Positions 7,347-62,528 of a DNA stretch of 64,000 nucleotides are shown piece by piece (position 1 is the stretch's first letter; each line of letters opens with the position of its first letter). The notes beneath the pieces are model-generated. The model did not search any database. It was not told the DNA's origin and was given only the letters and a program-made list of their open reading frames with translations. Both the position numbers and the translations under genes were made by a program. The DNA comes from Escherichia phage vB_Ec-M-J: the sequence record OQ718158.1, one strand, 5' to 3'.

Positions 7347-7348
7347 TA

Positions 7349-31768: not shown

Positions 31769-31778
31769 GAGTTGACAT

Positions 31779-37164: not shown

Positions 37165-37428
37165 ATGAATATCCAAGATAGATTGCAATTGTTGCACACA
37201 CTTGAAGAAGCTGCTTTTGAACTTGTTAATAAAATTGCACAAGAACTCCCAAAAGGAACCAAAGTTCGTGTTCGTGAAATGGATTATTTAACGGGAAAAA
37301 TTGATGAAAAAGTTCTAACAGTGATCAAAGTAACATACTATGAATCAGAGTTATCAATTCAATGTAATTCAGATAATGGTTACGTTTCCTACTATGGTAC
37401 AGATGTAGATATAGAGGTAATAAAATGA
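37165..37428 (+). CDS. hypothetical small protein, family B-like
   Basis: ATG 37165 after GGTGG; G-T-K-V-R-V ... G-K-I pattern. Confidence 0.5.
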   Translation: MNIQDRLQLLHTLEEAAFELVNKIAQELPKGTKVRVREMDYLTGKIDEKVLTVIKVTYYESELSIQCNSDNGYVSYYGTDVDIEVIK

Positions 37429-38567
37429 CCCTTTTACAAATATATGAAGATTTAATGCACTTATGTAATACCCGTGATGCTTTCTTTTATGTGGATCATA
37501 AAAGTCCTGCTGGTGGAACATATCGTGTATTCAGTTATCGTCTAGCATCATATACCGATTTCATGCAACCCAATGCATTAGAAACCCGTGGTTCTATGTG
37601 GGAAATTGATGAAGACGGTGATATGATTCGTTGTGCTGCTCGTACTATGAAAAAGTTCTTCAATGCTTACGAAAATCCTGCTACAATGTTCCCTGCTGAT
37701 ACCTCATTCGATGACATTGCAGTAGTGATGCCTAAGTTGGATGGTTCAGTAATCAGTACTTACCGTGATAATGATGGTGTAATTCGTTGTAAATCACATA
37801 CTGCATTGTATTCAGACCATGCGATTAACAGTACTCGTCTTCTCAATGAGAACCAAAATTTGTATCAATACATTGACGAAGCAGACCGTTTGGGCTATAC
37901 TGTTAATCTGGAGTATACAAGTCCAGAGTACCGTATTGTATTACCATATCAGGTTGAACAATTATTTGTACTAAACGTTCGCAATCGTAAGAGTGGTGAA
38001 CTATTATGTGGTTCTGCATTACGTAATAAGTTCCCATGCCTTGCACAGTACAGTACTAACATGACAGGTAAAGATATTCATTACACTTTCCCTGCTCGTG
38101 CTACATTCAAAGAAAGTGTTGAAGAAGTTAAGAAAATGCTTGACATTGAAGGTTTTGTGTGCATCCTAAATAATGGTACAATGTGCAAAATCAAAACCGA
38201 CTGGTATTGTTCTTTGCATTTAACGAAAGACAGTATTATAATCGATTCCCATTTATATGAAGCTGTATTAAATGGTTCGAGTGATGATTTAAAACAGTTG
38301 TTCAGTACTGACGAATATGCTACCCAAAAGATATTAAGAATGGAACAACTAGTCTTTTCGTGCTATAATGCTTTACAAGATGAAGTTGAAAGCTTCGTCA
38401 AGGAACACAAGCACTTGGAGCGAAAGGAATTCGCTAAGAAGGTTCAGGAGTGTTTAACTAATGAACTGAATCGTCAGGGCTTGGCCTTTGCAATGTACAA
38501 CAATAAGAAAGTCGATTACAAAGAGACTCTTATTAAGTACATGAAAATTGTACTAAAGGATTTTTAG
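37425..38567 (+). CDS. rnlA: RNA ligase 1 (T4 Rnl1/gp63-like)
   Basis: 380 aa; N-terminal FFYVDHKSPAGGTYRVFSY and lysine-nucleotidyltransferase motif I MPKLDGSVISTY align with T4 Rnl1. Confidence 0.9.
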   Translation: MTLLQIYEDLMHLCNTRDAFFYVDHKSPAGGTYRVFSYRLASYTDFMQPNALETRGSMWEIDEDGDMIRCAARTMKKFFNAYENPATMFPADTSFDDIAVVMPKLDGSVISTYRDNDGVIRCKSHTALYSDHAINSTRLLNENQNLYQYIDEADRLGYTVNLEYTSPEYRIVLPYQVEQLFVLNVRNRKSGELLCGSALRNKFPCLAQYSTNMTGKDIHYTFPARATFKESVEEVKKMLDIEGFVCILNNGTMCKIKTDWYCSLHLTKDSIIIDSHLYEAVLNGSSDDLKQLFSTDEYATQKILRMEQLVFSCYNALQDEVESFVKEHKHLERKEFAKKVQECLTNELNRQGLAFAMYNNKKVDYKETLIKYMKIVLKDF

Positions 38568-39389: not shown

Positions 39390-40322
39390 ATGCCAACTAT
39401 CACACTAACAGTTGGATTGCCTGGGTGTGGTAAAACTACATGGGCAGTGCAAGAGATTAAAAAAGCCAAATCCAAGACTATCAACATCAACCGTGATGAT
39501 ATTCGTGAATCTATGGCTGGGTCACATGATGCTTACAAATTCAACGATGCTAATGAGCAGTACGTAACTAATTTACAGTTCAGTGCAGCAAATTCAGCCG
39601 CAGAGAATGGTTGGAACATCATCATATCCGATACGAACCTTAAACAACATTTCCGTAATCTATGGAAAGTATGGGCTATAGATAATGGTTATGATTACAA
39701 AGAAAAGAATTTCTATGATGATTTTGTACCTAATGAAGACCGTGGTGCAGATGTTCATGAATTCTTTAAGATTAAAGAGTTCGTAAAACTTTGTAAGAAA
39801 TATAACCTCCAGCGTGAGCGTTCAGTACAAGATAATATCATTGACACTATGGCAGATACGTACTATTATAGTAAGGCATTACACATTGGTTACTATGGTA
39901 ATTCACGAGAAGCTGCTATTATCGTTGATATCGACGGTACTCTTGCTCATAAATGGGGACGTAACCCGTTCGATGAAAGTACTGTACTCCAGGATACACC
40001 AGACGAAGAAGTTATTTTGTCGATTATCGCAGAAGCAGTTTTTCATAAACGCAAGATTATCGTCATGAGTGGGCGTACTGAAGGGTGTCGTGCTGATACC
40101 GAACAGTGGCTTAAGAATTGGGGTGTTCCTTACGATGCGTTGTTTATGCGAGGCATCGATGATAAACGTCCTGATGATGTTGTTAAATTCGACCTGTACA
40201 TGAAAAATGTGGTTGATCATTACGATGTTAAAAAGGTTTATGATGACCGCAATCAAGTTGTTTTTATGTGGCGTAAGCTACTTGGGTTGAAAGTTTTCCA
40301 AGTGGCAGAAGGAAATTTCTAA
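39390..40322 (+). CDS. pseT: polynucleotide 5'-kinase / 3'-phosphatase (T4 Pnk-like)
   Basis: 310 aa; Walker A GLPGCGKTT, NINRDD, ISDTNL, HAD motif DIDGTLA, C-terminal WRKLLGLKVFQVAEGNF match T4 PseT. Confidence 0.92.
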   Translation: MPTITLTVGLPGCGKTTWAVQEIKKAKSKTININRDDIRESMAGSHDAYKFNDANEQYVTNLQFSAANSAAENGWNIIISDTNLKQHFRNLWKVWAIDNGYDYKEKNFYDDFVPNEDRGADVHEFFKIKEFVKLCKKYNLQRERSVQDNIIDTMADTYYYSKALHIGYYGNSREAAIIVDIDGTLAHKWGRNPFDESTVLQDTPDEEVILSIIAEAVFHKRKIIVMSGRTEGCRADTEQWLKNWGVPYDALFMRGIDDKRPDDVVKFDLYMKNVVDHYDVKKVYDDRNQVVFMWRKLLGLKVFQVAEGNF

Positions 40323-45383: not shown

Positions 45384-46582
45384 TGGATTTTCCAGAGAAG
45401 TTATTTGTGGCTCGTTCATATGTAAATCATAACCAAGTTACTGGTTACATTATAGATGCCACAAAATCACACACAAAAGCGTTTGAGACTAAAAAAGAAA
45501 AGGCCGAGTACTGGGCTAAGAAAAACAATCTACCGTCACTATGGATTGATAATGTGCCTACAATTGGATTTTCTGTGGTACATAAGCTCACTGTTCATGC
45601 TCGTGAAACATACTTCACCATTCGTCACCCTGAAGGTTTCGAGTTCTTGGTGAGTGCTAAAAACATGAACGACCTTATCATCAACAATGATATTGTTAAG
45701 GGTGTATTTGTTGAACCTATGTTCTTCAATAATAGTTTAGAACTAATTAACGGTAAAACTAAAACCTTTGCTAAATTGGTTGAGAAGGAGAATAAGAAAG
45801 AACAACAAAAAGAAGTTGTTTCTAAATTGAAAGTGGGTGATGGTTTTAGACACAATAAAGAAGATTACTATTATTGTGGTAAAGTAAATGCTATTTGTAT
45901 CAAGAAAACTAAAGAGTTTTCATTTTCTGATAAGAGTTCCAAGTATCACTTAGTATATAATACTACTCGTGGGACATATGCTCTTAATGCTCGTCTTGAA
46001 ACTTATGCGTTAGAACCAAGTGCTGCACTGAATGTAAAAACTACAGTTCAAGATGAAATTGTTAAAGCTAATGCATTTTGGCAAAATATCCAACGAAATC
46101 GCAGTAACCCATTATGTGAAAGCAATATTCCAGTACTGATAAGTGATAAGTCGTTTAAAGCACAAGATTTGAAAGTAAAGTACGAAGAAATCAATCCTGA
46201 TGATATAATGAGTAATGGACGATTCAATGAGAACGTACCGTTCATGTGTAAAGTTGATGAACAGGCATATCGTGTTTTCTTTGGTGTAAAGAACAATACA
46301 ACCAGAAGTTATTATGGTCGTAATGGTGATTATATTCTTCAATACACTGATGTATTTGAACGATACAGTGCGTATCCAGTTGAAATTGATGCTAATGGTA
46401 TTATGACAATGGATGTGGATTTAAACGAACATGTATCATTTGGTACATGGAACGGATACCGTTCTCCTTTCTTCCCACCGACTGAAAATAAAACATCATC
46501 AACTCGTTACTACCAAGAAAAACCTTGTCACGTCCAGCTATCACTAAGTAATAAACTTTATATTGGAAAGTATTATCTATAA
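45380..46582 (+). CDS. hypothetical protein
   Basis: 400-aa ORF; no recognisable motif. Confidence 0.6.
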   Translation: MMDFPEKLFVARSYVNHNQVTGYIIDATKSHTKAFETKKEKAEYWAKKNNLPSLWIDNVPTIGFSVVHKLTVHARETYFTIRHPEGFEFLVSAKNMNDLIINNDIVKGVFVEPMFFNNSLELINGKTKTFAKLVEKENKKEQQKEVVSKLKVGDGFRHNKEDYYYCGKVNAICIKKTKEFSFSDKSSKYHLVYNTTRGTYALNARLETYALEPSAALNVKTTVQDEIVKANAFWQNIQRNRSNPLCESNIPVLISDKSFKAQDLKVKYEEINPDDIMSNGRFNENVPFMCKVDEQAYRVFFGVKNNTTRSYYGRNGDYILQYTDVFERYSAYPVEIDANGIMTMDVDLNEHVSFGTWNGYRSPFFPPTENKTSSTRYYQEKPCHVQLSLSNKLYIGKYYL

Positions 46583-46593
46583 GGGAATATACA

Positions 46594-48012
46594 ATGAGCA
46601 TTTTAGCAATTCTTGAAAGCATTAAAAATACTAGCAGTACTCTGGGTAAAAAAGCTATTCTTGAACAAAACAAAGATAATCAAACATTACAAAAAGTACT
46701 GAAATATACACTAGACCCTTCAATTGTAAGTGGGTATAAAAAGCTACCACAAGCTGATGATGTATACCAACATATGACATTAGAAGAAGCAATTGATAAG
46801 CTAGAATGCATTTACAAACGTGGTGTGACCGGAAATGCTGGGCGTGACTTCATTGCTTCAGTACTGGGTTCAGTATCAGAAGATGACCAAGAAGTTCTTC
46901 GTAAAATGCTCACGAAGAACCTTGATTGTGGTATCCAAGAAAAGAACTGCAATGATGTGTTCGGGAAAGGTTTTATCAAAGACGAACCATACATGCGTTG
47001 TTCTTTGATTGACAAAAAGACTGCAAAGAACATTAACTTCAAAGATTATGGTTATGCTATATCAGAAGTGAAAATGGATGGTCAGTACTTGAACCACGTT
47101 GTCATTAATGGTTCATTAACTTCTACATCCCGTAATGGTAAACTATACGACTTCCTGGGTTGTCGTGATGGTGAAATGGCAGGTCTTGCTCACATCATCC
47201 AAAGTAAAGATGAACGTTTTAGTAGTGGTGTAGTCTTTATGGGTGAAGGTGTAGTACTGGACAATGATGGAGAAACCATTCTCCCACGCACTACTGGTAA
47301 CGGTATTATCCAGAAAGCTGGTAAAGATAGCATCAGTCAGAATGAAGCAATGCGTACTGTATTTGTTCTATGGGATGTTGTTCCATATGATGCATTTTGT
47401 GAAGGTGTATGGAATGTAAAACGTAAAGAACGTCGCGAGATCTTAGTAGATGCAATTAACGAACTCGGTAGTGATTTTGTTCGTATGGTTGGATTCCGTA
47501 AAGTTCTAAACATCAAAGAAGCATTTGAGTACAATAGTGAACTAATGAACGAAGGTGAAGAGGGTTCAGTACTGAAATGTGAAGATGGTATCTGGAAATC
47601 TCACACTTCTCCTAAGCAATTGAAAATGAAACTTAAAATGCAATTGGACTTGCGTATTGTTGGTTTCAATGAAGGTGAAGGTAAGCGTAAAGGTAGTCTT
47701 GGTTCTTTACAACTGGAAAGTGCTTGTGGTACATTGAAAGTTAATGTAGGTACTGGAATTAAAGAGAAAGACGCAGAATGGACGTTTAAAACCATTTGGG
47801 AAAGAATGCAAGAACTCATTGGTCAAGTAGTGACAGTAGAGTGCAATGATATTGTGTTCGATAAGCGAACTGGCGAGCCATCACTATTTTTACCAGTGTT
47901 TATTGAATTTAGATTTGACAAAAACACCTGTGACGACTATACTCGTATCTTAGAAATTCGTGATAGTGCTGTTGAGGTGTTCTCTAATAGTATTCTTGAA
48001 TCACTCGGTTAA
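46594..48012 (+). CDS. ATP-dependent DNA ligase (T4 gp30-like)
   Basis: 472 aa; N-terminal ILESIKNTSSTLGKKAILEQNKDN and motif I SEVKMDG match T4 DNA ligase; AAGGGAA RBS. Confidence 0.9.
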   Translation: MSILAILESIKNTSSTLGKKAILEQNKDNQTLQKVLKYTLDPSIVSGYKKLPQADDVYQHMTLEEAIDKLECIYKRGVTGNAGRDFIASVLGSVSEDDQEVLRKMLTKNLDCGIQEKNCNDVFGKGFIKDEPYMRCSLIDKKTAKNINFKDYGYAISEVKMDGQYLNHVVINGSLTSTSRNGKLYDFLGCRDGEMAGLAHIIQSKDERFSSGVVFMGEGVVLDNDGETILPRTTGNGIIQKAGKDSISQNEAMRTVFVLWDVVPYDAFCEGVWNVKRKERREILVDAINELGSDFVRMVGFRKVLNIKEAFEYNSELMNEGEEGSVLKCEDGIWKSHTSPKQLKMKLKMQLDLRIVGFNEGEGKRKGSLGSLQLESACGTLKVNVGTGIKEKDAEWTFKTIWERMQELIGQVVTVECNDIVFDKRTGEPSLFLPVFIEFRFDKNTCDDYTRILEIRDSAVEVFSNSILESLG

Positions 48013-48031
48013 TCATTTATAGGAGGTAATT

Positions 48032-48823
48032 ATGAAATTTGTTGTAACGTCAGACGTACACGGTGGCACTGATTACCTCCATAGTGGTGATTACAGTGAT
48101 ACAGTTCTGATTATTGCAGGGGACTTTGATGAAGCTAAACGCAGTCGTTATCGTACTGGTATCGAATCCCTGTGCAAGCAGTTCAAGAATGTAGTACTGG
48201 TTCCTGGTAATCATGAGTACTACGGTTCAAACATTCACAAGACTAATAAAGTACTGTCCGATATGCAAGATGAGATTCCAAATTTCATCTTTTTGCAAAA
48301 CAAATTTGTATGGCTGGATGGTGTACTGCTGGTTGGTAGTACACTGTGGACTGACTTTGATAAAGGCAATGCACTGGTTAAGTTTGATGCTCAACAAAAG
48401 ATGAATGATTATAAACACATTCGTCATGGAACAACATCAGAACCGTGGAAACGTAAGCTCAAACCTGATGATGTTGAGTTCATGCATTATCAGGATAAAC
48501 AATTTATCAAAAATTCAGTTAACACAGTTCGTCTAATGAATGATAATGATTTCAAGGTTGTGGTGGTAACACATCATGCACCAAGTTATCAGAGTGTATC
48601 TCCGAGATACAAGAATGACTCACTGAATGGATGTTATTGTTCTGATATGGACCAGTATATCGAAGATTTGGGTGCTGATGTTTGGATTCATGGTCACGTT
48701 CATAGTAGCTTTGACTACATCATTGGGAAAACTCGTATCATTTGTAACCCAAGAGGTTATGAATCTTACAGTGGTGCATGTGAGAACTTCGATTACGATC
48801 CTAAATTTGTATTTGAAATCTAA
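48032..48823 (+). CDS. calcineurin-like metallophosphoesterase
   Basis: DVHGG, AGDFD, GNHEY, THHAP and GHVH motifs. Confidence 0.8.
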   Translation: MKFVVTSDVHGGTDYLHSGDYSDTVLIIAGDFDEAKRSRYRTGIESLCKQFKNVVLVPGNHEYYGSNIHKTNKVLSDMQDEIPNFIFLQNKFVWLDGVLLVGSTLWTDFDKGNALVKFDAQQKMNDYKHIRHGTTSEPWKRKLKPDDVEFMHYQDKQFIKNSVNTVRLMNDNDFKVVVVTHHAPSYQSVSPRYKNDSLNGCYCSDMDQYIEDLGADVWIHGHVHSSFDYIIGKTRIICNPRGYESYSGACENFDYDPKFVFEI

Positions 48824-49670: not shown

Positions 49671-50366
49671 ATGGTTGAACAATTCAATTTTGGTGGTTAT
49701 GCTGGTGGTGAAGTTCGCAACATTTCTATTCCTTATGTAGTTGAAAAAGTTAATGGTGCAGAACGTACTTATGATCTAGCATCTCGTATGATGCAAGACC
49801 GTATCATTTTCCTTGATACTGACTTCAATGACCAAATGGCACATATCATCAAGCAACAATTGGTGTGGTTGGATTCTCAGGGTTCTGAACCAATTACCTT
49901 CTACATTAGTTCTCCTGGTGGTTCAGTACACGCAGGTTTGGGTATCGCTGACATTGCTAAGTCTTGTGTATCTCCTATCCGTACAGTAGTAATGGGTTAT
50001 GCAGCATCAATGGGTTGCTATACACAATCAGTAGTTGGGACTAAAGGTTTCCGTCTAGGTGGTAAGCGTTCTTACTTCATGTGTCATCAAGTAAGTTCCG
50101 GTACTCAGGGTCTGATTACCGATCAGAAGATTTCTTTGAAACACTCTGACGCATTGAACACACTATTGACGAAAGAAATTGCTGAAGCAGTTGGTGTATC
50201 ACACGAACAACTACTGAAAGATGCTGACCGTGACCTGTGGTTGAACGCTGAAGAAGCACTCGAATACGGTGAACATGGTTTCATTGATGGTATCATCCTT
50301 GGTCCACGCAACGAAGAAGGTAAGTATCTCGTCAAACGTCGCGGTGGCGTGGAAGAGTGGGTCTAA
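49671..50366 (+). CDS. clpP: ClpP-family serine protease subunit
   Basis: RIIFLDTDFNDQMAHIIKQQLVWL, ISSPGG, catalytic Ser in GYAASMG and His in FMCHQ align with bacterial ClpP. Confidence 0.9.
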   Translation: MVEQFNFGGYAGGEVRNISIPYVVEKVNGAERTYDLASRMMQDRIIFLDTDFNDQMAHIIKQQLVWLDSQGSEPITFYISSPGGSVHAGLGIADIAKSCVSPIRTVVMGYAASMGCYTQSVVGTKGFRLGGKRSYFMCHQVSSGTQGLITDQKISLKHSDALNTLLTKEIAEAVGVSHEQLLKDADRDLWLNAEEALEYGEHGFIDGIILGPRNEEGKYLVKRRGGVEEWV

Positions 50367-51795: not shown

Positions 51796-52323
51796 ATGAA
51801 ATACACTGCTCTTAGCCCAACTGATACTAAAGTATGGTTGAGTAATTTGAACAAAACTATTATTTTAACCAAAAAAGTGATATCAACAGCTAATTCATTA
51901 GATGTAAATATCAAGAAGAATGTTCTTAAATATCATCACCGAAGTAAACTTAGTACTTGGTACTCCAATATTTTTTACGGCTTATATGGGATGGATGATA
52001 TTTTAATTGGTACATCATCTGGGTCATGCTTCAGTGCTGGTGGTATGTGCTTTATGGATTTGGGTTTTTCATTATCCGATGAAGAAATCGAGTTTAAACA
52101 ATTCCGTGACAAGTTACTGGGTTCGGGTGATATCAAGTTCTGTACAGAATTAATGGGAGCATGGGACGTTTATGCAGCGAAACCATTTGACATTGAAGAA
52201 TCAGATGTGCTAAACTACCTTCGTGTTCTTAAAATACATTCGAACTGTAAAACCAAATTACAATCCCTAGGAGTATATGATGAAACACTTGACGTGGTTG
52301 AAGATAGCCGAAGTCGTGGCTGA
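51796..52323 (+). CDS. hypothetical protein
   Basis: 175-aa ORF; GAGGA RBS. Confidence 0.55.
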   Translation: MKYTALSPTDTKVWLSNLNKTIILTKKVISTANSLDVNIKKNVLKYHHRSKLSTWYSNIFYGLYGMDDILIGTSSGSCFSAGGMCFMDLGFSLSDEEIEFKQFRDKLLGSGDIKFCTELMGAWDVYAAKPFDIEESDVLNYLRVLKIHSNCKTKLQSLGVYDETLDVVEDSRSRG

Positions 52324-52759
52324 AGAGAGTAAATGCATTTCACAGAAAGTTGGTTGTGTTATTGTTAAAAATAACCGAGTATTGAGTACTGGTTATAATG
52401 GCACTCCATCTAAACAACCTAACTGCTGTGACGCTAATGAGCACTTAGTTAATGGTGGACGTTTCCAAGACTGGGTTAGCGATGACGCAAAGCATGAACA
52501 CCATGAATGGAGTAATATCCATGAAATCCATGCTGAAATGAATGCATTGTTATACAGTTCACCTACCGAACGTCAGGGAGCAACACTTTACACAACGCTG
52601 CAACCATGCTATACTTGTTCTAAGTTGATCGCGGGAAGTGGTATTGCTCGCGTGATTTATCACAAAAGTTATCCTCGCACTCCACCAGAAGCTATTAAAG
52701 TACTGGAAGATGCTGGGATTATTGTAAATTGCATTTATGATAAGGGGTTGGGACTTTGA
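52277..52759 (+). CDS. dCMP deaminase (T4 Cd-like)
   Basis: N-terminus LKIAEVVAEESKC, then zinc-binding HAE and PCYTC motifs and STGYNGTPS, as in T4 Cd. Confidence 0.85.
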   Translation: MMKHLTWLKIAEVVAEESKCISQKVGCVIVKNNRVLSTGYNGTPSKQPNCCDANEHLVNGGRFQDWVSDDAKHEHHEWSNIHEIHAEMNALLYSSPTERQGATLYTTLQPCYTCSKLIAGSGIARVIYHKSYPRTPPEAIKVLEDAGIIVNCIYDKGLGL

Positions 52760-53016: not shown

Positions 53017-53024
53017 AAAAAAAA

Positions 53025-53050
53025 GGAGCCATAAGGCTCCTTTTTCTTTT
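53025..53050 (+). terminator. rho-independent terminator
   Basis: A-run, hairpin GGAGCC-ataa-GGCTCC, then TTTTTCTTTT. Confidence 0.7.
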
Positions 53051-53137: not shown

Positions 53138-53165
53138 TAGACATTATACATTAGTGTGATATAAT
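53138..53165 (+). promoter_or_regulatory. sigma70-like promoter (TAGACA-N16-TGATATAAT)
   Basis: -35 TAGACA 53138-53143, -10 TATAAT 53160-53165 preceded by TGTGA. Confidence 0.55.
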
Positions 53166-53300: not shown

Positions 53301-53909
53301 GTGGTACGATTATGTAAAGAAATCATCCAATCTATTATTATTATTTTCTTAATTAACTTTCCTGCAAGTGCAGGTGTTGAAAGAAAAAGTATCATTAGAT
53401 ATGATGAATCTAAACAGACAGTTCAGTTCATTTCAACTTTAACTGAAAATACTGTAAACCGTTTGATGGTTTTTAGAGAAACACACCCATTTGACACTAT
53501 CATCATTACGTCACCTGGTGGTGATTTTGATGCGGGAGTGGCACTAGGAAATTTTGTCAATGATAACAATTTAACAATTATTGTTGAAAGATATTGTAAT
53601 TCTTCTTGCACTATCGCATTCTTTAGTGCTAATATAGAAAACAGATACATGATGAAGGACTCAATTCTAGGTCTACATAATGTGTCAATCGAAAGTAAAG
53701 CACGAAATAGTGATGACACATACATATCAGTTCGCCAAATGACTATTTTTGCTGAACAGCTATCAACTAAGGTTGGTGTTCTATTTGCGTTATATGCAGC
53801 GAATGGTATTCCTCCAGAATTGTTAGTGGAGGTTAGTAAGGTTCGTGGTAATGAAGTTGTGAGACTTACACCAGATCAGTTGCTCGAATTAGGTAGTATC
53901 ATTCATTAG
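53301..53909 (+). CDS. exported ClpP/S49-like (crotonase-fold) peptidase-like protein
   Basis: GTG start after AGAGGG; N-terminal signal-like IIQSIIIIFLINFPASA; ITSPGGDFDAG ... CNSSCTIAFF ... LGLHN resembles the ClpP active-site scaffold. Confidence 0.45.
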   Translation: MVRLCKEIIQSIIIIFLINFPASAGVERKSIIRYDESKQTVQFISTLTENTVNRLMVFRETHPFDTIIITSPGGDFDAGVALGNFVNDNNLTIIVERYCNSSCTIAFFSANIENRYMMKDSILGLHNVSIESKARNSDDTYISVRQMTIFAEQLSTKVGVLFALYAANGIPPELLVEVSKVRGNEVVRLTPDQLLELGSIIH

Positions 53910-54001: not shown

Positions 54002-54262
54002 ATGACAAATTTACAAAACTTAACATCTCTTGTTTTTTATGCAACAACTATTGTATATTGCATTACATTAGTTTTAACATGTTTCATCTATAAAGACTAC
54101 AAACGTGGTTTTATGGATTCCAGTACACACAAATTTGCATCCAAGTTAGAAGCAGGAATTTACTATGTTCTATCAATTTCTTATGGAGCATGTTTACTTA
54201 CACTAGGGTTGCTGATATACTGGTTGTATACGGCACTTTTTGCACAAGGAGTTATTTCATGA
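54002..54262 (+). CDS. hypothetical small membrane protein
   Basis: 86 aa; AGGAG RBS; hydrophobic helices. Confidence 0.5.
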   Translation: MTNLQNLTSLVFYATTIVYCITLVLTCFIYKDYKRGFMDSSTHKFASKLEAGIYYVLSISYGACLLTLGLLIYWLYTALFAQGVIS

Positions 54263-54852
54263 CTTGTATTATCGCTCACACAAATGGCACATCTTCCTTC
54301 ATCGCTGGTGATAAATTAGGAAGCAATGGTTTCACTAAAGCAGTTCAAACTGAGCCTAAAGTGTTTGAGAAAGAGTTCATTAAACTCAATGAGGATGGTC
54401 TTTCTCGCACTAAAGAAGTAATGGCGTTGGGGTATACTACCTCGTTCCGCATGGGACAGTTGTTGAATTACAACCTAACTCTACCAGAACAAGTTGCAGG
54501 GGAAACCTTTTCACAGTATCTAGTACTGAAAGTTATTCCTATCATTCGTCAAATGTTTAAAGATGAATGGGGTGCTCGTGATGCATCACAAGATGTTGGT
54601 GGTGGTCAGTTCATTATTCTTCATAATCATACGATTTATGAAGTTCAAGAAGACTTTTCAGTACTGCAACCTAAAACACAAATTACTGCTGTCGGAAGTG
54701 GGACTTATCATGCAATTGCATCCATGTCAGCGTATATTGAAGTTCAAGAAGAAACCAATGTTCAGTTACATGAACGTGTTGAGTCTATTTTCAAAATTGT
54801 TAGTGATAATGTAACAAGTGTTAGTCCAGAGTTTGATATTTTGAAATACTGA
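54259..54852 (+). CDS. HslV/proteasome-beta-like Ntn hydrolase
   Basis: N-terminus M-TCIIAHTNGTSSFIAGDKLGSNG aligns with HslV [23 protein letters not shown] (Thr would be residue 1 after Met removal); later ITAVGSGTYHAIAS resembles HslV GSGG region; AAGGAG RBS. Confidence 0.6.
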   Translation: MTCIIAHTNGTSSFIAGDKLGSNGFTKAVQTEPKVFEKEFIKLNEDGLSRTKEVMALGYTTSFRMGQLLNYNLTLPEQVAGETFSQYLVLKVIPIIRQMFKDEWGARDASQDVGGGQFIILHNHTIYEVQEDFSVLQPKTQITAVGSGTYHAIASMSAYIEVQEETNVQLHERVESIFKIVSDNVTSVSPEFDILKY

Positions 54853-55084: not shown

Positions 55085-55837
55085 GTGATATCAGATAAAT
55101 TTATACAAAATGCTGGGAACAAAAGATTACTTATAATTTCAGGGGCAGGTCTTTCAGTTGAGAGCGGGATGGAACCATTCCGCTTTGATGATGGGTTGTG
55201 GGACAATTTCAAAATTAATGATGTTTGTAACATTGCACGACTTAGTTCTAAGTATCATGTAGTTCATTCATTTTATAATACATTGCGTGTAAAATTAGGT
55301 GAATGTCATCCTAATGAAATGCATTACTTTATTAAATCATTAGAAGATTTGTATGGTGATTGTTTTTTACACATGACTTCTAATATGGATGATCTATATA
55401 CTAGAATTGGTGGAACCGAACTCAAACTACACGGCAATTTATGTGAAGTAATTGAGAACTTTTCTATTAATACCGATGATTACAATGTCATTAATTGTGG
55501 TTATGAACCATATATTCCTAAAGCTGATGTTTTTGCAAAACCAAATGTAGTGATGATTGGTGAGTATCATCGCTACGTTGATGGGGTACGTCTCCCCATT
55601 TATGAAGAACGAAATGAAGTGTTGAAAAGTCTCACAGAAAATGATACAGTTGTAGTTATTGGAAGTAGTGATACAGTACTGGTATGGTCCAGACTAGCTG
55701 GTGCACTTCCATGCTATAGTGTAAATGTTAACATCCGAAAAAATGATAATGATTTTCTTTTTAATGAGAAGGTCATCAAACCTGCGACGAAAGCAATTCC
55801 ACAGATTGAAACTATAATTAAGGAACGAATGCGATGA
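55085..55837 (+). CDS. Sir2-family protein (sirtuin-like NAD-dependent enzyme)
   Basis: GTG start eight nt after AAGGAG; sirtuin motifs GAGLSVESGMEPFR, TSNMDDL (TQNID-like) and catalytic-His context KLHGNL. Confidence 0.75.
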   Translation: MISDKFIQNAGNKRLLIISGAGLSVESGMEPFRFDDGLWDNFKINDVCNIARLSSKYHVVHSFYNTLRVKLGECHPNEMHYFIKSLEDLYGDCFLHMTSNMDDLYTRIGGTELKLHGNLCEVIENFSINTDDYNVINCGYEPYIPKADVFAKPNVVMIGEYHRYVDGVRLPIYEERNEVLKSLTENDTVVVIGSSDTVLVWSRLAGALPCYSVNVNIRKNDNDFLFNEKVIKPATKAIPQIETIIKERMR

Positions 55838-56385
55838 GTAAAGCGGAAGTACCACTGGGGCAAATGGGGAAACGTGCAAATTTTGTATTCTGTTTCTTTT
55901 ATGCAAAAGAATGTACCCCATACGCTGGTTATGAACTAAATGATATCCCAGTGGTTAACTTAGTACTCCTACAAGTGCGTTGGGATGGATTGTTGGGTGC
56001 ATGTGGTGGAACAGTTGAAAGTACTGATAAGTCATTAGAAGATGCGTTACAGCGTGAAGTTCAAGAAGAAATGAACTATATCATTGACAAAAGTCGCCTG
56101 TCTCCATTAAAATCACTTGAATTGTTTCCAGAGGGACACTCACATAGCTATAGTTATGAAATGACTTATGCTGAACTTAAAAAACTTCGTGATAATTATG
56201 CATATGGCAAACATGCTAGTGCAGAGGTGGCTGGTGTAAATTTATGTCACATCTCTCGTTATTCGAAGGGACAAAATCGAGAAGCAGGATATAATAATCT
56301 TATGACACAGAACTTCATCGGAACTGCGAAACAAGAATTAGAGTATCTTGTACAAAAAGAAAACTTACTAATCAGCTATCTATAG
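55834..56385 (+). CDS. Nudix hydrolase
   Basis: Nudix box GACGGTVESTDKSLEDALQREVQEEMN (G-x5-E-x7-R-E-V-x-E-E); ATG overlaps the Sir2 stop. Confidence 0.75.
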   Translation: MSKAEVPLGQMGKRANFVFCFFYAKECTPYAGYELNDIPVVNLVLLQVRWDGLLGACGGTVESTDKSLEDALQREVQEEMNYIIDKSRLSPLKSLELFPEGHSHSYSYEMTYAELKKLRDNYAYGKHASAEVAGVNLCHISRYSKGQNREAGYNNLMTQNFIGTAKQELEYLVQKENLLISYL

Positions 56386-56394: not shown

Positions 56395-56715
56395 ATGTCG
56401 TACTCAATGTTCTTGGATGATATTCGTGATTATCAAAAATATTATCCTGACCAAGAGATGGTATTGTGTCGTGACTACGAAAGTGCATGTGAATACGTAA
56501 TCAAAAATGGAATTCCAGCATTTGTCTCATTTGACCATGACTTGGGTGACTTGAGTACAGATGAGAAAACGGGATACACTTTTGCCAAATTTCTAATTGA
56601 TTATATGTTTGAGCATAATATTAAAGAACCATTTAAATACTATGTACATAGTAGTAATCCAGTAGGGAAAGTTAATATTGAAACTTACTTAACTAATGGA
56701 TTTAATGCACTATGA
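56395..56715 (+). CDS. hypothetical protein
   Basis: 106-aa ORF; AGGAG RBS. Confidence 0.5.
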   Translation: MSYSMFLDDIRDYQKYYPDQEMVLCRDYESACEYVIKNGIPAFVSFDHDLGDLSTDEKTGYTFAKFLIDYMFEHNIKEPFKYYVHSSNPVGKVNIETYLTNGFNAL

Positions 56716-57014
56716 TTTCAACACATATCAAGAGTCTTATTTGCACAACACTGTTAGGTATAGGTGTTCTATGGTTCAGTTCATATCATGAGAACACTAA
56801 ACGTTACAATATTCATTACAATGCAGCGACTGTAACAGGATTAGGTCAATGTAATGAAAATAAATGCTCATTTACTTATAAAACCAGTACTGGTGAAGTT
56901 CGTAATGGGTTATCAAGAGATCCAGTATCAATTGGTCAACTAGTTTACCAGGAATGCTGGGAGGAAAAGGCTCGTGGTTCAAGATGTTATGTTGAATACG
57001 AACCGAGCATGTAA
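56712..57014 (+). CDS. hypothetical exported or membrane-anchored small protein
   Basis: N-terminal hydrophobic segment LICTTLLGIGVLWFS; Cys-rich. Confidence 0.45.
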   Translation: MISTHIKSLICTTLLGIGVLWFSSYHENTKRYNIHYNAATVTGLGQCNENKCSFTYKTSTGEVRNGLSRDPVSIGQLVYQECWEEKARGSRCYVEYEPSM

Positions 57015-57075: not shown

Positions 57076-58515
57076 ATGAAAAAATATACAATTGACACAA
57101 ACGTACTACTATCTGATCCAAATGCTACCATTGCTTTTGATGGAGCAGCTATCATTCTACCGTTCACAGTACTTGAAGAATTGGATTCAATTAAAAGTCG
57201 TAATGTGGATGTTTCCCGTGATGCTCGTGTTGCAATCCGTAACATTGAAGCTATCCTTTCTGATGCATCACATGAAGAAATTAGTAGTACTGGTGTTAAT
57301 ATTGCTGATGTTCATACTAATATGAGTCCTGAAAGCAAATTGTTTGTTATTACAAGCGAAGAAGCTGAAGCACTAATTCGTACTGCTGGTAACGAAGAGA
57401 AAGTTCAAACTCTTCTAAAAAGCACAGTACCAGATGATAAAATCATTTTAGTAGCATTAGCAACTGATTCAGTACTGGTTACCCGTGATATCAATATGCG
57501 TATCAAGGCTCTAAGCTACGGGGTGGAAGTTCAAGATTATCGTCATGATATCGTGATTGGTGATAGTGATTTGATTCACATTGGTCAACATCACCTTGAC
57601 CTACATTTCTGGGATGTGTATAGTAATCTGACTGATGTATCTATTCAGTCTGAACAAGTTGGTCGTCGTTTGTACCACTACATTCCAAAAAGCTTGATTG
57701 AACATATCATGCCACAAAATATTTGCATCGGTGATTACCTATATGATAATGCTGATGTTCTATTTGTGTACGAAGGTCAATCTGCAATTGAAGAAGATGA
57801 TGGTACTTTAACACCAGAAGATATTCTTGTATTCCAAGATATTGGACAATCTGTTGCTCTACGTGCTAAAGTGTGGGATATTAAGGCTAAGAATATTCAA
57901 CAAGCACTAGCAATCAACAGTATCCTAGATCCTGATGTTCATCTAACAGTACTGTTAGGTTCAGCAGGTACTGGTAAAACACTAATCACCATTGCAACTG
58001 CACTAGAGTTAGTTCTAGAGAAGAAAAAATACGACCGTATCATCTTCTCCAAAACACAAGATTCCCAATTCGAAGACATTGGTTTCTTGCCTGGTTCTGA
58101 AGCAGAGAAAGTGATTCCTTTCTGTGGTGCGGCAATCGATGCGTTGGAATTCCTACACAAAGATGATGCTAACCCACAAGGCAGTATCGAAGAAATCATG
58201 AAACGCAATGTTATCCAATTCAAAGCACTAAACTTCGTTCGTGGTCGTTCTTTCACAAATACTATCCTAGTAGTTGATGAATTCCAGAACATCACACCTG
58301 CTCAGGCAAAAACAATCTTGACTCGTGCAGGGATGAACTGTAAAGTGGTTATTATGGGCAACTTGAGCCAGATTGACTCTAAATTCATTAGTCCAGTAAA
58401 CAGCGGCCTAACTTATGTTACCGAGAAGTTCAAGAACTGGGACGGCTGTCGTGTAATCGAACTAGAAGGTGTCGTTCGTTCACCACTAGCAGAATTTGCA
58501 GAAGAAAATATGTAA
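57076..58515 (+). CDS. phoH: PhoH-like ATPase with N-terminal PIN domain
   Basis: N-terminal IDTNVLLSDPNA (PIN-like acidic pocket) and Walker A LLGSAGTGKT; 479 aa. Confidence 0.88.
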   Translation: MKKYTIDTNVLLSDPNATIAFDGAAIILPFTVLEELDSIKSRNVDVSRDARVAIRNIEAILSDASHEEISSTGVNIADVHTNMSPESKLFVITSEEAEALIRTAGNEEKVQTLLKSTVPDDKIILVALATDSVLVTRDINMRIKALSYGVEVQDYRHDIVIGDSDLIHIGQHHLDLHFWDVYSNLTDVSIQSEQVGRRLYHYIPKSLIEHIMPQNICIGDYLYDNADVLFVYEGQSAIEEDDGTLTPEDILVFQDIGQSVALRAKVWDIKAKNIQQALAINSILDPDVHLTVLLGSAGTGKTLITIATALELVLEKKKYDRIIFSKTQDSQFEDIGFLPGSEAEKVIPFCGAAIDALEFLHKDDANPQGSIEEIMKRNVIQFKALNFVRGRSFTNTILVVDEFQNITPAQAKTILTRAGMNCKVVIMGNLSQIDSKFISPVNSGLTYVTEKFKNWDGCRVIELEGVVRSPLAEFAEENM

Positions 58516-58581: not shown

Positions 58582-58779
58582 ATGGCAAAGCAACCTAAGA
58601 AAAAAGAACCAGTAGCAAAAGTTAAGAAAGTTAAAGTTATTCAATCTAAAGAACAACGTAATTACGAACTACGTAAAGCAGAAACCCTATCAGGTCTTCA
58701 AGCTCTACGTAAACAAGGTGTTCTAACTCGTGCTCAATACCGTGAGATCGTAGCACAAAAAGGTTATTGGTCCATTTGA
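58582..58779 (+). CDS. hypothetical small basic protein
   Basis: AAGGAGAAA RBS; Lys-rich N-terminus. Confidence 0.5.
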   Translation: MAKQPKKKEPVAKVKKVKVIQSKEQRNYELRKAETLSGLQALRKQGVLTRAQYREIVAQKGYWSI

Positions 58780-58873: not shown

Positions 58874-58903
58874 ATCCCTGTCTTTTGGCAGGGATTTTTT
58901 CTT
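58874..58903 (+). terminator. rho-independent terminator
   Basis: hairpin ATCCCTG-tcttttgg-CAGGGAT followed by TTTTTTCTTT. Confidence 0.7.
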
Positions 58904-58995: not shown

Positions 58996-59553
58996 ATGTT
59001 TTTTGACCAAACATTTACGTTGTACCATGATTCAGGTAAAGTTGAGATTATTGATAATCTGTTAGAGTACATTGCGGAACATGACGGTATAGACCGTTTC
59101 CACAGTAAGATGAAATTCGATTTAGCTGAATTCAACAAAAAGAATCGTGAAACATTTTGGAAGAACCGTTTCTATTACGAAATGTATCCAGAAAAGTTCG
59201 TAGGTTATTATCTTTGTACTGAAAAAGGATTACTTGTATCTCCTGATTTACTTATGGGTGAATACATGATACTCTATAATGAGTACTGGGAACATAAGCG
59301 TAATGCTCGTGACACTGAATGGCGACACAAGCGTTCGTATATGTACAAACATAACCACTCCAGATACAAACGTCCTAAGACCCAACAAGAGCGTCGTATG
59401 GCTTGTGCAGTACTGAAGGATGAGGGGGAACCTGAAATACGTGGAAGACGTAAGATGCGTTCATTGCCATCGTATTGGGATGATATCAGAACAAGACACA
59501 GTACTGGCTGGAAATACAGTACAAAACGTAAACATCAATACAAAGGGAGCTAA
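58996..59553 (+). CDS. hypothetical protein with basic C-terminus
   Basis: AAGGAGAAA RBS; Arg/Lys-rich tail. Confidence 0.55.
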   Translation: MFFDQTFTLYHDSGKVEIIDNLLEYIAEHDGIDRFHSKMKFDLAEFNKKNRETFWKNRFYYEMYPEKFVGYYLCTEKGLLVSPDLLMGEYMILYNEYWEHKRNARDTEWRHKRSYMYKHNHSRYKRPKTQQERRMACAVLKDEGEPEIRGRRKMRSLPSYWDDIRTRHSTGWKYSTKRKHQYKGS

Positions 59554-61548: not shown

Positions 61549-62163
61549 ATGACTACATCTGAAAAGTACTGGTGGATTATGGGCCATCCTAAATTCATCA
61601 ACGGAGATATGGTTCCCCCAAGGATTGATATCGAACCACATGATGTGTGTCCAATCACAAACCGCATTGAATCATTTAAAGCTCTGAATACAAAGACACA
61701 ATTTTGGGTAGAATTCATCTCACCTATGTACGTTGAGCAAGATGATGAATGGGTACAAGCACATGATTATGAGTTAGATTGCGGTGGTGATACTTATGAT
61801 GAGGCAATTGATGAACTATACAAAAATGTGCTAAACACTTATGGTGATTACACCCAACAAGAAGCAGACGATACGTTTAATAAGATCCATGCAGTCATTC
61901 CTACATCATCAATTTACAATTCAGCAAAAACAGTTTGGGAAGAACGTCACGGGTGGAGTTCATCTGTAATTGATGCAGAAGCCAAAGAAACAATTCTCGA
62001 AGACATAAAAAATATAAAAAGTACAATAGAAGCCTTGCGTGAATTTATAAAGTCTTGTACAATAGAACAACAGAAAGAGGCAAAGATGCATTTGGAGAGT
62101 GAAGAATGTAAACTTTGGGTTCTAGAGAAATCATTTGAAAAGGGTATAGACTTAGACTTATGA
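61549..62163 (+). CDS. hypothetical protein
   Basis: ATG 61549 after GGAG. Confidence 0.55.
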   Translation: MTTSEKYWWIMGHPKFINGDMVPPRIDIEPHDVCPITNRIESFKALNTKTQFWVEFISPMYVEQDDEWVQAHDYELDCGGDTYDEAIDELYKNVLNTYGDYTQQEADDTFNKIHAVIPTSSIYNSAKTVWEERHGWSSSVIDAEAKETILEDIKNIKSTIEALREFIKSCTIEQQKEAKMHLESEECKLWVLEKSFEKGIDLDL

Positions 62164-62528
62164 ATCGTAAACTTGAGAAACTAATTGAAGAACTACGCCG
62201 GATGCCACCCATCGAGCAAGTGGGGAGCTACAAACGTTATCGTGTGATTGCTCGTGCACTAGATAAGAAAGGTCGTGTATTGGCAACACGTACTAATTCT
62301 TACACACATACTCACCCAGTACAGAAAGGTTTTGCAATCCGTGCTGGGCGTCCACAAGGTGAATTTCTTCATGCTGAAATCTCATGTTTGCTGGCTTCTC
62401 GTGCTGAAGTTCATACTTTGTTGATTGCACGGGTAAGTAAAGATGGTATTCCAGTCCCTGCCAAGCCTTGTGAGATTTGTACGTTGGCAATTCTGGAATA
62501 TGGGGTAAAAGAAATTATTCACACATGA
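62160..62528 (+). CDS. cytidine/deoxycytidylate-deaminase-fold zinc protein
   Basis: HAE ... PCEIC zinc-binding signature in a 122-aa protein. Confidence 0.6.
   Translation: MNRKLEKLIEELRRMPPIEQVGSYKRYRVIARALDKKGRVLATRTNSYTHTHPVQKGFAIRAGRPQGEFLHAEISCLLASRAEVHTLLIARVSKDGIPVPAKPCEICTLAILEYGVKEIIHT

What the first reader, a model, noticed from the sequence alone, without database searches (positions are those of the whole stretch)
55085..56385. Phage-encoded Sir2-like protein translationally coupled to a Nudix hydrolase
A standalone 250-aa Sir2-family protein (GAGLSVESGMEPFR, TSNMDDL, LHGNL) ends with an ATGA overlap into a Nudix hydrolase with a canonical Nudix box. Sir2 enzymes consume NAD+ and release ADP-ribose or acyl-ADP-ribose, and Nudix enzymes hydrolyse ADP-ribose-type nucleotides. 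A coupled pair in a lytic phage suggests manipulation of NAD+/ADPR metabolism: protein ADP-ribosylation or deacylation with product clearance, or interference with NAD-depleting or cyclic-ADPR-signalling defences. The specific role is unknown.
Basis: partly seen in the sequence, partly recalled or inferred. Interest (0 to 1): 0.65.

Follow-up and report, generated by a model that had tools for sequence, protein, structure and literature searches.

The report
Phage sirtuin–Nudix–cREC RNA-repair-type gene block
The Sir2–Nudix pair is real, but it is the front end of a conserved five-gene block of RaK2/121Q-type jumbo phages that was already described by computation in 2022 as a probable NAD+-dependent RNA-repair system and has never been tested by experiment.

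Summary
A 250-aa Sir2 (55085-55837) overlaps by ATGA a 183-aa Nudix (55834-56385). The Nudix box is the NUDT16 variant, not the strict canonical one. The window is a 121Q-type jumbo coliphage whose public records already name both genes.

The pair heads a block found in 16 of 16 related jumbo-phage loci: Sir2, Nudt16-like Nudix, cREC ("cyclic-phosphate processing receiver"), a small membrane protein and PIN-PhoH. In 9 loci Nudix and cREC are fused. Iyer et al. 2022 described this neighbourhood and predicted that the sirtuin acts like Tpt1/KptA on RNA 2'-phosphates.

New here:
- The Nudix is Nudt16-like.
- The sirtuin belongs to a zinc-less clade shared with T5-like and rV5-like phages, where it sits beside RNA-repair genes.
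- By fold it ranks with deacylase sirtuins, above SirTM and defence NADases.
- Distant cREC genes sit beside RNA ligases without any Sir2.
- Sister phages place the NARP2 NAD+-salvage genes directly upstream; this phage lacks them.
- The window also encodes T4-type Rnl1 and Pnkp.

Best reading (about 0.4): NAD+-dependent RNA-end processing with clearance of the ADP-ribose by-product. Protein deacylation remains a serious rival. Already known as a prediction; moderate interest.

The parts
55085..55837 (+). Zinc-less class III-like sirtuin (Sir2), 250 aa, GTG start
55834..56385 (+). Nudt16-like Nudix hydrolase, 183 aa, ATGA overlap with the Sir2
   Evidence: PF22327 E=1.5e-18. Human NUDT16 5wji 9e-12 and X29 1u20. 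R74, E75, E78 and E79 are invariant in 12 homologues.
56395..56715 (+). cREC (cyclic-phosphate processing receiver domain), 106 aa, 9 nt after the Nudix
56712..57014 (+). Conserved 100-aa protein with an N-terminal hydrophobic segment and 5 Cys; overlaps cREC by 4 nt; role unknown
   Evidence: PHROG 14661 'membrane protein' 2.6e-38. Present between cREC and PhoH in 16 of 16 loci.
57076..58515 (+). PIN-PhoH (PhoH2-type) predicted RNase plus ATPase, 479 aa
   Evidence: PF13638 PIN_4 4.5e-20 and PF02562 PhoH 8.5e-45. Present in 16 of 16 loci.
58582..58779 (+). Conserved basic 65-aa ORF downstream of PhoH; role unknown
   Evidence: PHROG 24119. Found in 9 loci. pI 10.4.
58996..59553 (+). Conserved basic 185-aa ORF; role unknown
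   Evidence: PHROG 12793 4.9e-91. Found in 15 loci. No Pfam hit. pI 9.4.
53138..53165 (+). Best sigma-70-like promoter match upstream of the block (consensus match only)
   Evidence: 11 of 12 matches with an extended -10 TG, just after the terminator-like hairpin at 53020-53045.
58874..58895 (+). Terminator-like hairpin after orf65; possible end of the transcription unit (consensus match only)
   Evidence: 9-bp stem with 5 GC pairs followed by a T run.
37425..38567 (+). T4-type RNA ligase 1 (RnlA), distal member of the same functional theme
   Evidence: PF09511 plus PF20819 T4_Rnl1_C. 63.5% identical to RaK2 rnlA.
39390..40322 (+). T4-type polynucleotide kinase/phosphatase (PseT/Pnkp)
   Evidence: AAA_33 plus HAD_PNKP 1.8e-43. 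63.7% identical to RaK2 pseT.

Best explanation
The Sir2 and Nudix are the first two genes of a conserved, probably co-transcribed block: Sir2, Nudt16-like Nudix, cREC, a small membrane protein and PIN-PhoH. The block most likely carries out NAD+-dependent processing of damaged RNA ends and then disposes of the ADP-ribose by-product.

Proposed steps (all inferred):
1. The zinc-less sirtuin cleaves NAD+ and transfers ADP-ribose onto an RNA phosphate. This would be a 2'-phosphate at a break or ligation junction, or a terminal phosphate, as Tpt1/KptA does. Nicotinamide is released.
2. The His116-activated 2''-OH attacks the phosphate, as in the normal sirtuin 1',2'-cyclic intermediate. This frees 2'-OH RNA and ADP-ribose 1'',2''-cyclic phosphate.
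3. cREC opens the cyclic phosphate.
4. The Nudt16-like Nudix splits the pyrophosphate into AMP and a phosphoribose phosphate. Alternatively it acts on ADP-ribose still linked to RNA, as NUDT16 does on ADP-ribosylated protein.
5. In sister phages the adjacent NARP2 enzymes rebuild NAD+ from the nicotinamide.

Shown here: family membership, intact active sites, synteny, the Nudix-cREC fusion, and RNA-repair neighbours in several phage lineages. Not shown: any substrate or activity.
For: - The block is present in 16 of 16 jumbo-phage loci with enough flank, and Nudix and cREC are fused in 9 of them.
- The same zinc-less sirtuin clade (no CxxC, Gln99 replaced by S/T/A) lies between Rnl1-type RNA ligase, cREC and a P-loop kinase on one side and a DNA ligase on the other in rV5-like phages. 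In T5 it lies next to a HAD 'Swiss Army Knife RNA repair' phosphatase.
- Distant cREC homologues with no Sir2 nearby sit directly upstream of Rnl2-type RNA ligases, or overlap a calcineurin-like phosphoesterase.
- The Nudix belongs to the NUDT16/X29 RNA-decapping and ADP-ribose-cleaving family (PMC8883491).
- The fifth gene is a PIN-PhoH predicted RNase/ATPase.
- The window itself encodes T4-type Rnl1 and Pnkp 15-18 kb upstream on the same strand.
- Most clade members keep the class III Tyr...Arg anion-binding pair, which could hold a phosphate (inference).
- Nampt lies directly upstream of the Sir2 in 15 of 17 jumbo loci, with NMNAT-Nudix also detected in 13, which fits an NAD+-consuming transferase.
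- Iyer et al. 2022 made the same prediction independently.
Against: - No experiment exists for any component.
- By sequence and fold the Sir2 is closest to protein deacylases.
- The Sir2 is acidic (pI 5.5), whereas Tpt1/KptA enzymes are typically basic RNA binders (my own knowledge).
- The phage already has T4-type Pnkp, which heals cyclic-phosphate ends without leaving a 2'-phosphate (my own knowledge of T4 Pnkp), so the need for a 2'-phosphotransferase is unclear.
- PIN nucleases do not make cyclic phosphates.
- The 2H phosphoesterase that Iyer et al. list for this neighbourhood was not found in the ORFs scanned between about 45 and 64 kb of the window.
- This Nudix subfamily turned up only in this jumbo lineage in IMG/VR, in a pattern-seeded scan with limited reach. 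It is therefore an add-on rather than a core partner of the sirtuin clade.
Confidence: 0.4

Rival explanations
1. The Sir2 is a CobB-like protein lysine deacylase that remodels host or phage protein acylation, for example by activating acetyl-CoA synthetase. The Nudix, with cREC, clears the O-acyl-ADP-ribose product. This is essentially the first reader's 'deacylation with product clearance'.
For: - The closest sequence and structure matches are E. coli CobB, Sir2Af1 and SIRT5.
- All NAD+-binding and catalytic residues are intact.
- Most clade members keep the FGE Phe (36 of 39) and the class III Tyr-x-x-Arg pair.
- A deacetylase role was proposed for related vibriophage Sir2 proteins, with expression high at 20 min after infection (PMC5107563).
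- Nudix enzymes such as Ysa1 and NUDT5 hydrolyse O-acetyl-ADP-ribose (my own knowledge).
Against: - The zinc ribbon, present in every characterised deacylase sirtuin, is lost throughout the clade, and the Gln of TQNID is replaced.
- In this window's protein the FGE Phe (I158), the VxP Pro (V200) and the CobB R95 equivalent (L67) are all replaced.
- Scores against NCBIfam CobB equivalog models are far below their cut-offs (89 against 318 bits).
- There is no macrodomain partner.
- A protein-deacylase reading does not explain the conserved linkage to cREC, RNA ligases, kinases and HAD/metallophosphoesterases in three phage lineages.
Confidence: 0.25
2. The block is an NAD+/ADP-ribose small-molecule counter-defence unit. 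Nudix-cREC destroys host ADP-ribose-derived immune signals or toxic metabolites (cyclic ADPR variants, ADPR-1''-phosphate, ADPR cyclic phosphate). The Sir2 acts on free NAD+/ADPR derivatives, as a glycohydrolase or by base exchange, together with the neighbouring NARP2 NAD+ salvage.
For: - Nampt lies immediately upstream of the Sir2 in 15 of 17 jumbo loci, with NMNAT-Nudix also detected in 13.
- The Nudix-cREC fusion suggests one shared small substrate.
- Iyer et al. argue in general that phage Nudix, Macro and cREC domains target soluble ADPr derivatives.
- NAD+-centred conflict is a well-established battleground (PMC13464706).
Against: - A phage NADase would work against the NAD+ salvage encoded next to it.
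- Distant cREC homologues sit with RNA ligases and phosphoesterases where no NAD+ enzyme is nearby.
- The 121Q-type subgroup, including this window, keeps the block without NARP2.
- The only enzyme so far shown to cleave 2'/3'cADPR is an unrelated RyR-domain glycosidase (PMC13232231).
Confidence: 0.15
3. The block processes RNA 5' ends or drives host RNA decay. The Nudt16-like Nudix decaps NAD-, ppp- or ADPR-capped RNA to 5'-monophosphate. PIN-PhoH then unwinds and cleaves the RNA, and cREC trims 3' cyclic phosphates. The Sir2 acts on NAD-capped RNA or regulates the other enzymes.
For: - NUDT16 and X29 are RNA-decapping enzymes (molecule names; NUDT16 appears in the non-canonical cap literature listed).
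- PIN-PhoH combines a predicted RNase with a PhoH ATPase.
- A Nudix-cREC fusion would pair a 5'-end and a 3'-end activity, as Pnkp does (inference).
Against: - This reading gives no clear role to an NAD+-cleaving sirtuin.
- The Nudix is joined most tightly to the Sir2 (ATGA overlap, or at most 17 nt, in 12 of 16 loci), which suggests that it acts on the Sir2 product.
- There is no experimental support.
Confidence: 0.1

Closest known systems
Predicted sirtuin-centred phage RNA-repair neighbourhood, type 1 (Iyer, Burroughs, Anantharaman, Aravind 2022, Viruses 14:1977; prototype Serratia phage BF)
   Same: [quoted passage not shown] Locus L009 has the genome length of Serratia phage BF and carries the fused Nudix-cREC that the paper describes.
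   Different: In this window Nudix and cREC are separate genes. No 2H phosphoesterase was found nearby. The paper does not classify the Nudix as Nudt16-like, and in the passages I read it does not mention the NARP2 adjacency or the Gln99 and zinc-ribbon signature.
Tpt1/KptA RNA 2'-phosphotransferase with 2H cyclic phosphodiesterase and macrodomain clean-up (tRNA splicing and repair)
   Same: The proposed chemistry is the same: NAD+-dependent ADP-ribosylation of an RNA phosphate, release of ADP-ribose 1'',2''-cyclic phosphate, then breakdown of that product (for the known pathway).
   Different: The folds are unrelated (sirtuin instead of ART; receiver fold instead of 2H; Nudix instead of macrodomain). 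The activity is only inferred here.
Class III sirtuins CobB and SIRT5 (protein lysine deacylases)
   Same: They give the best sequence and fold matches. The catalytic His, the GAGxS, N and D NAD+ motifs and the FGE loop backbone are shared, and the clade keeps the Tyr...Arg pair.
   Different: The phage protein has no zinc ribbon, and the Gln of TQNID is replaced. It scores far below the CobB equivalog cut-offs, and the genomic context differs.
Human NUDT16 and Xenopus X29
   Same: The match covers the full length, with the same variant Nudix-box spacing and the same REx2EE core.
   Different: Identity is only about 25-30%. The phage protein is frequently fused to cREC, and its substrate is unknown.
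SirTM-macrodomain operons (protein ADP-ribosylating sirtuins)
   Same: Both pair a sirtuin with an enzyme that acts on ADP-ribose.
Defence SIR2 NADases (ThsA, DSR1/2, Sir2-HerA, SIR2-APAZ, Avs5)
   Same: They share the SIR2 fold and consume NAD+.
NARP2 (phage Nampt plus NMNAT NAD+ reconstitution pathway)
   Same: It lies directly upstream of the Sir2 block in RaK2, GAP32, CBB and Serratia BF-type relatives.
   Different: It is absent from this window, and 121Q-type phages do not appear among the best 60 Nampt hits.

Membership tests
Sirtuin / SIR2 superfamily (PF02146) | Profile match above the curated threshold, and the Rossmann-type sirtuin fold | tested here: met
Sirtuin / SIR2 superfamily (PF02146) | NAD+-binding motifs (GAGxS, xNxD) and the catalytic His | tested here: met
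   G20, G22, S27, G28, N100, D102 and H116 are invariant in 20 homologues and across 76 loci.
Sirtuin / SIR2 superfamily (PF02146) | Cys4 zinc ribbon in the small domain | tested here: not met
   There are 0 CxxC motifs between the catalytic His and the FGE loop in the jumbo, T5-like and rV5-like sirtuins. E. coli CobB and the other viral sirtuins sampled have 4-6 Cys there, including 1-2 CxxC motifs.
Sirtuin / SIR2 superfamily (PF02146) | NAD+-dependent catalytic activity | not testable with these tools
   This needs an enzyme assay.
CobB/SIRT5-type class III protein deacylase | Equivalog-level sequence match to CobB | tested here: not met
   NCBIfam NF001755 89 bits against 318, and NF040867 85 against 320.
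CobB/SIRT5-type class III protein deacylase | Tyr-x-x-Arg acidic-acyl recognition pair, and the FGE Phe and VxP Pro peptide clamp | tested here: inconclusive
   The window protein has Y64 but L67 (with R68 one residue later), I158 for the Phe and V200 for the Pro. Most Zn-less clade members keep the Arg (29 of 39) and the Phe (36 of 39); the Pro is kept in 16 of 39.
SirTM (ADP-ribosylating sirtuin) | Operon partner macrodomain, and closest structural similarity to SirTM | tested here: not met
Defence-associated SIR2 NADase (ThsA, DSR, Sir2-HerA, pAgo-associated) | Match to defence-system models, and a fused or adjacent sensor or partner | tested here: not met
Nudix hydrolase superfamily | Catalytic REx2EE helix of the Nudix box | tested here: met
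   R74, E75, E78 and E79 are invariant in 12 homologues.
Nudix hydrolase superfamily | Strict canonical box GX5EX7REUXEEXGU | tested here: not met
   The box is G59-x5-D65-x8-RE-x2-EE-x-N, with one extra residue, Asp in place of Glu and no terminal Gly.
Nudt16-like subfamily (PF22327) | Full-length profile match, and NUDT16-type box spacing | tested here: met
   67.7 bits against a cut-off of 27, model positions 4-161 of 161. Aligns to human NUDT16 residues 29-181 at E=9e-12 with identical box spacing.
cREC (PF20274) | Profile match, receiver-like fold, conserved acidic active site, and no histidine-kinase partner | tested here: met
cREC (PF20274) | Cyclic-phosphate phosphodiesterase activity (predicted only, even for the family) | not testable with these tools
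   No experimental paper was found. Iyer et al. state that the domain is uncharacterised.
Iyer et al. 2022 type-1 sirtuin RNA-repair neighbourhood | [quoted passage not shown] | tested here: met
   found in 16 of 16 loci.
Iyer et al. 2022 type-1 sirtuin RNA-repair neighbourhood | A linked 2H phosphoesterase | tested here: not met
   No 2H family hit for the ORFs scanned between about 45.4 and 63.8 kb. Remote homologues could have been missed.
Tpt1/KptA RNA 2'-phosphotransferase | Homology to the Tpt1 (ART-fold) family | tested here: not met
   The Sir2 matches only the SIR2 family. Any similarity to Tpt1 is functional analogy, not membership.
NARP2 | Phage Nampt plus NMNAT genes | tested here: not met
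   tblastn with RaK2 ORF498 and ORF500 finds nothing in the window, L001 or L002. Nampt (ORF500) is found in L003-L017, and NMNAT-Nudix (ORF498) in 13 of those 15 loci.

The most novel reading that the evidence does not exclude
The zinc-less phage sirtuin would be the first sirtuin whose natural substrate is a nucleic-acid phosphate. It would be a non-homologous replacement of Tpt1/KptA that makes ADP-ribose 1'',2''-cyclic phosphate. That product would then be opened by a receiver-fold enzyme (cREC, a new catalytic use of the CheY-like fold) and split by a NUDT16-like Nudix, with NARP2 closing an NAD+ cycle in sister phages.
Probability: 0.33. Interest if true: 0.8.

Novelty: already known. 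Interest (0 to 1): 0.4.

Why it matters
Phage sirtuins have been annotated since the T5 and KVP40 genomes, yet none has a demonstrated activity. If the RNA-phosphate hypothesis holds, it would add a new substrate class for sirtuins and a new enzymatic role for the receiver fold. It would also add a second NAD+-dependent RNA-repair route that phages could use against RNA-cleaving host defences. The locus gives a compact, testable enzyme set of three small soluble proteins, and relatives in T5 and rV5-like phages are genetically tractable. If the Sir2 turns out to be a deacylase, it would be an example of viral control of the host acylome. As a finding it is not new: the genes are already named in GenBank and the neighbourhood was published in 2022.

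Tried and rejected
- **NARP3 paper (PMC13464706).** Its 'phage Sir2' refers to the host Sir2-HerA defence, so it is irrelevant here.
- **PADLOC.** Nothing for Sir2 or cREC, and only a sub-threshold hit (16 bits) for the Nudix.
- **His61 as a clade marker.** Rejected: it also occurs in close zinc-containing relatives.
- **Loss of the FGE Phe and VxP Pro as clade-wide evidence against deacylation.** Rejected: only the 121Q/RaK2 subgroup lacks the Phe, and the Pro varies.
- **'This lineage lacks an Rnl1 RNA ligase'.** I inferred this from a tblastn with an rV5-type Rnl1. It was wrong. The RaK2 paper and annotation, tblastn and Pfam show T4-type RnlA and PseT in the window; the rV5-type query was too divergent.
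- **A 2H phosphoesterase near the block.** None found.
- **The 72-phage cADPR-cleavage screen (PMC13232231).** I tried to learn whether it included Sir2/cREC-carrying coliphages, but the list is not in the accessible text.
- **tRNA genes.** None in the window.
- **Promoter and terminator scans.** These are consensus matches only, and terminator counts do not exceed the shuffles, so the transcription unit is tentative.
- **Nudt16-like Nudix in other phage contexts.** The scan found only the same jumbo contigs; being pattern-based, it reaches only fairly close relatives.
Full report
**Observation.** The two ORFs are as described. ORF 55085-55837 (+) has a GTG start after an AAGGAG site, is 250 aa long, and carries the quoted motifs. 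ORF 55834-56385 (+), 183 aa, starts within an ATGA overlap. The first matches Pfam SIR2 (E=1.3e-19) and PHROG 2162 (1e-73). The second matches PF22327 'Nudt16-like' best (E=1.5e-18, full model) and generic NUDIX only weakly. The Nudix box is not strictly canonical. It is G59-x5-D65-x8-RE-x2-EE, the same spacing as human NUDT16, and its catalytic REx2EE core is invariant.

**Origin.** The window is 99.2% identical over 4.6 kb to Escherichia phage Turkey3 and about 80% to phage 121Q. These are 350-390 kb jumbo myoviruses of the RaK2-like lineage. Public records already call the genes 'Sir2-like / NAD-dependent protein deacylase' and 'nudix hydrolase'.

**What the unit really is.** The next gene (56395-56715, 9 nt downstream) is a cREC 'cyclic-phosphate processing receiver domain' (PF20274, E=1.9e-23). 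It is followed, with a 4-nt overlap, by a 100-aa predicted membrane protein and then by a PIN-PhoH protein. I fetched 76 viral loci encoding Sir2 relatives and searched their ORFs with iterated profiles. All 16 jumbo-phage loci with enough flank carry Sir2, Nudix, cREC, the membrane ORF and PIN-PhoH in that order. In 9 of them Nudix and cREC form a single ORF of about 305 aa. These include contigs whose lengths match GAP32, CBB, Serratia phage BF and fHe-Yen9-04. The Sir2/Nudix junction overlaps or is at most 17 nt wide in 12 of 16 loci. In four loci a 123-aa acidic ORF is inserted, itself joined to the Sir2 by an ATGA overlap. Hairpin terminators at 53020-53045 and 58874-58895, with a strong promoter-like site at 53138-53165, fit one transcription unit. 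These are consensus matches only.

**Prior knowledge.** Iyer et al. [quoted passage not shown] They propose that the sirtuin acts like KptA in removing RNA 2'-phosphates, while the other enzymes make the 2'-phosphate or process the resulting ADPr cyclic phosphate. The cREC domain was defined in their 2021 jumbo-phage survey. A 2016 paper had already noted that phage Sir2/CobB proteins, including those of T5 and GAP32, replace the zinc ligands with salt bridges, and it proposed a deacetylase role. I found no experimental work on cREC, on phage sirtuins in RNA repair, or on phage Nudt16-like enzymes.

**The Sir2.**
- Closest solved relatives are E. coli CobB (E=2e-21), Sir2Af1 and SIRT5.
- A confident AF2 model (pLDDT 91.7) superposes best on CobB by Foldseek (TM 0.76-0.85).
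- The NAD+-binding and catalytic residues are invariant.
- The jumbo, T5-like and rV5-like phage sirtuins all lack the Cys4 zinc ribbon and replace the Gln of TQNID with Ser, Thr or Ala. The other viral sirtuins in the set keep both features.
- Among 132 full-length representatives from an exhaustive search of 1.84 billion cluster representatives, the two changes go together (61 Gln+Zn, 38 non-Gln+Zn-less, 24 and 9 mixed; odds ratio 10.7). The sequences are not independent, so the p-value is only nominal. Only 10 representatives score E<=1e-30.
- His61 is not clade-specific.
- Most Zn-less members keep the FGE Phe and the class III Tyr-x-x-Arg pair. The window's protein is atypical, with I158, V200 and L67.
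- It scores far below the NCBIfam CobB equivalog cut-offs and has no PADLOC match.

**Context in other lineages.**
- In an rV5-like phage the order is calcineurin-like phosphoesterase, then Rnl1-type RNA ligase, cREC, a P-loop kinase, Sir2 and an ATP-dependent DNA ligase, followed by a MazG-like gene.
- In T5 the Sir2 is followed by a HAD 'Swiss Army Knife RNA repair' phosphatase.
- Distant cREC homologues (42-45% identity), in phage-like metagenomic contigs with no Sir2 in the flanks fetched, sit directly upstream of Rnl2-type RNA ligases. One of these contigs (L095) also has an Rnl1 and a kinase nearby. Another group overlaps a metallophosphoesterase homologous to the one in this window.
- The window itself encodes T4-type Rnl1 with its tRNA-specific C-terminal domain (37425-38567) and T4-type Pnkp (39390-40322). 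RaK2 has the same pair.

**An NAD+ link not noted in the passages of the 2022 paper that I read.** In RaK2 the genes directly upstream of the Sir2 are an NMNAT-Nudix fusion (ORF498) and a Nampt (ORF500), which together are the NARP2 pair. Nampt lies within 6 kb upstream of the Sir2 in 15 of 17 jumbo loci. It is absent from the window, fEgEco12 and 121Q, and no 121Q-type phage appears among the 60 best Nampt hits in the phage collection. So the block is usually embedded in an NAD+ island, but it persists without it.

**Interpretation.** Several lines make NAD+-dependent RNA-end processing with by-product clearance the best-supported model:
- The sirtuin clade has RNA-end-healing and sealing neighbours in three phage lineages.
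- cREC is linked to RNA ligases independently of the Sir2.
- The Nudix belongs to the NUDT16 family, whose members act on RNA caps and on conjugated ADP-ribose.
- Nudix and cREC are fused in many relatives.
- The block includes a PIN-PhoH gene.

The chemistry is plausible because the sirtuin mechanism (nucleophile attack at C1'', then 2''-OH attack giving a 1'',2''-cyclic species) parallels Tpt1; this is inference. I give the model about 0.4. Against it: there is no experiment, the Sir2 has a deacylase-like fold and is acidic (pI 5.5), T4-type Pnkp is already present, and no 2H gene was found.

The rivals are a CobB-like protein deacylase with O-acyl-ADPR clearance (0.25), a small-molecule NAD+/ADPR counter-defence unit (0.15), and RNA 5'-cap processing or host RNA decay (0.1).

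**Verdict.** The system has already been described, as a computational prediction. What this analysis adds is detail that sharpens the experiments: the Nudt16-like assignment, the structural ranking, the zinc-less/Gln99 signature and its limits, the Sir2-independent cREC contexts, and the NARP2 adjacency.

Noticed in passing
window 37425-38567 and 39390-40322: A complete T4-type tRNA-repair pair: Rnl1 with its tRNA-specific C-terminal domain, and Pnkp with kinase plus HAD phosphatase. Both are on the same strand, 15-18 kb upstream of the Sir2 block, and about 63% identical to RaK2 rnlA and pseT.
   Followed up: yes
L093 (RaK2 NC_019526) 12144-15802; L003-L017 upstream of the Sir2: The NARP2 genes (NMNAT-Nudix ORF498 and Nampt ORF500) lie directly upstream of the Sir2 block in most RaK2-like jumbo phages. 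In the 121Q-type subgroup, including this window, an HslV-like peptidase and small ORFs occupy that position instead.
   Followed up: yes
window 45380-48823: A 400-aa protein with no Pfam hit (PHROG 14061), then an ATP-dependent ligase, then a calcineurin-like phosphoesterase. The 400-aa protein is distantly related to ~400-aa unknowns located two genes downstream of Rnl2 and cREC in metagenomic phage-like contigs. The phosphoesterase is homologous to one that overlaps cREC in another group of metagenomic phage-like contigs. This looks like a recurring set of genes around nucleic-acid end processing.
   Followed up: partly
window 49671-50366, 53301-53909, 54190-54852: Three protease-like genes within 5 kb upstream of the Sir2: a ClpP (E=1e-41), a weak ClpP-like protein annotated elsewhere as head maturation protease, and an HslV-family peptidase (PHROG 1040). 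The HslV-like gene was detected near the Sir2 in 5 jumbo loci.
   Followed up: no
window 52277-52759 and 62160-62528: Two separate cytidine/dCMP deaminase-family genes lie 10 kb apart. The second is a weak match, at the Pfam threshold.
   Followed up: no
L003 6750-7121 (also L005, L006, L007): In four jumbo loci a 123-aa acidic ORF of unknown function is inserted between the Sir2 and the Nudix. It overlaps the Sir2 stop by ATGA.
   Followed up: partly
L007 5989-6749: The Sir2 is split into two overlapping ORFs in this metagenomic contig. This is either a frameshift or pseudogene, or an assembly error.
   Followed up: no
window 5064-14976 and 30934-32337: Small tandem paralogue families of 90-165-aa ORFs of unknown function. 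One family has 6 members, one has 5, one has 3 and one has 2.
   Followed up: partly
window 56712-57014, 58582-58779, 58996-59553: Three conserved genes of unknown function travel with the block: a 100-aa Cys-rich predicted membrane protein between cREC and PhoH (16 of 16 loci), a basic 65-aa ORF (9 loci) and a basic 185-aa ORF (15 loci).
   Followed up: partly
L001 (fEgEco12) 15690-16661 and 21935-22261: The closely related phage fEgEco12 is annotated with a WGR-domain protein (a domain known from PARPs) and a DUF4326 protein (predicted by Aravind's group to process ADPr-linked phosphates) 5-11 kb downstream of the Sir2 block. I did not check whether the window has equivalents.
   Followed up: no
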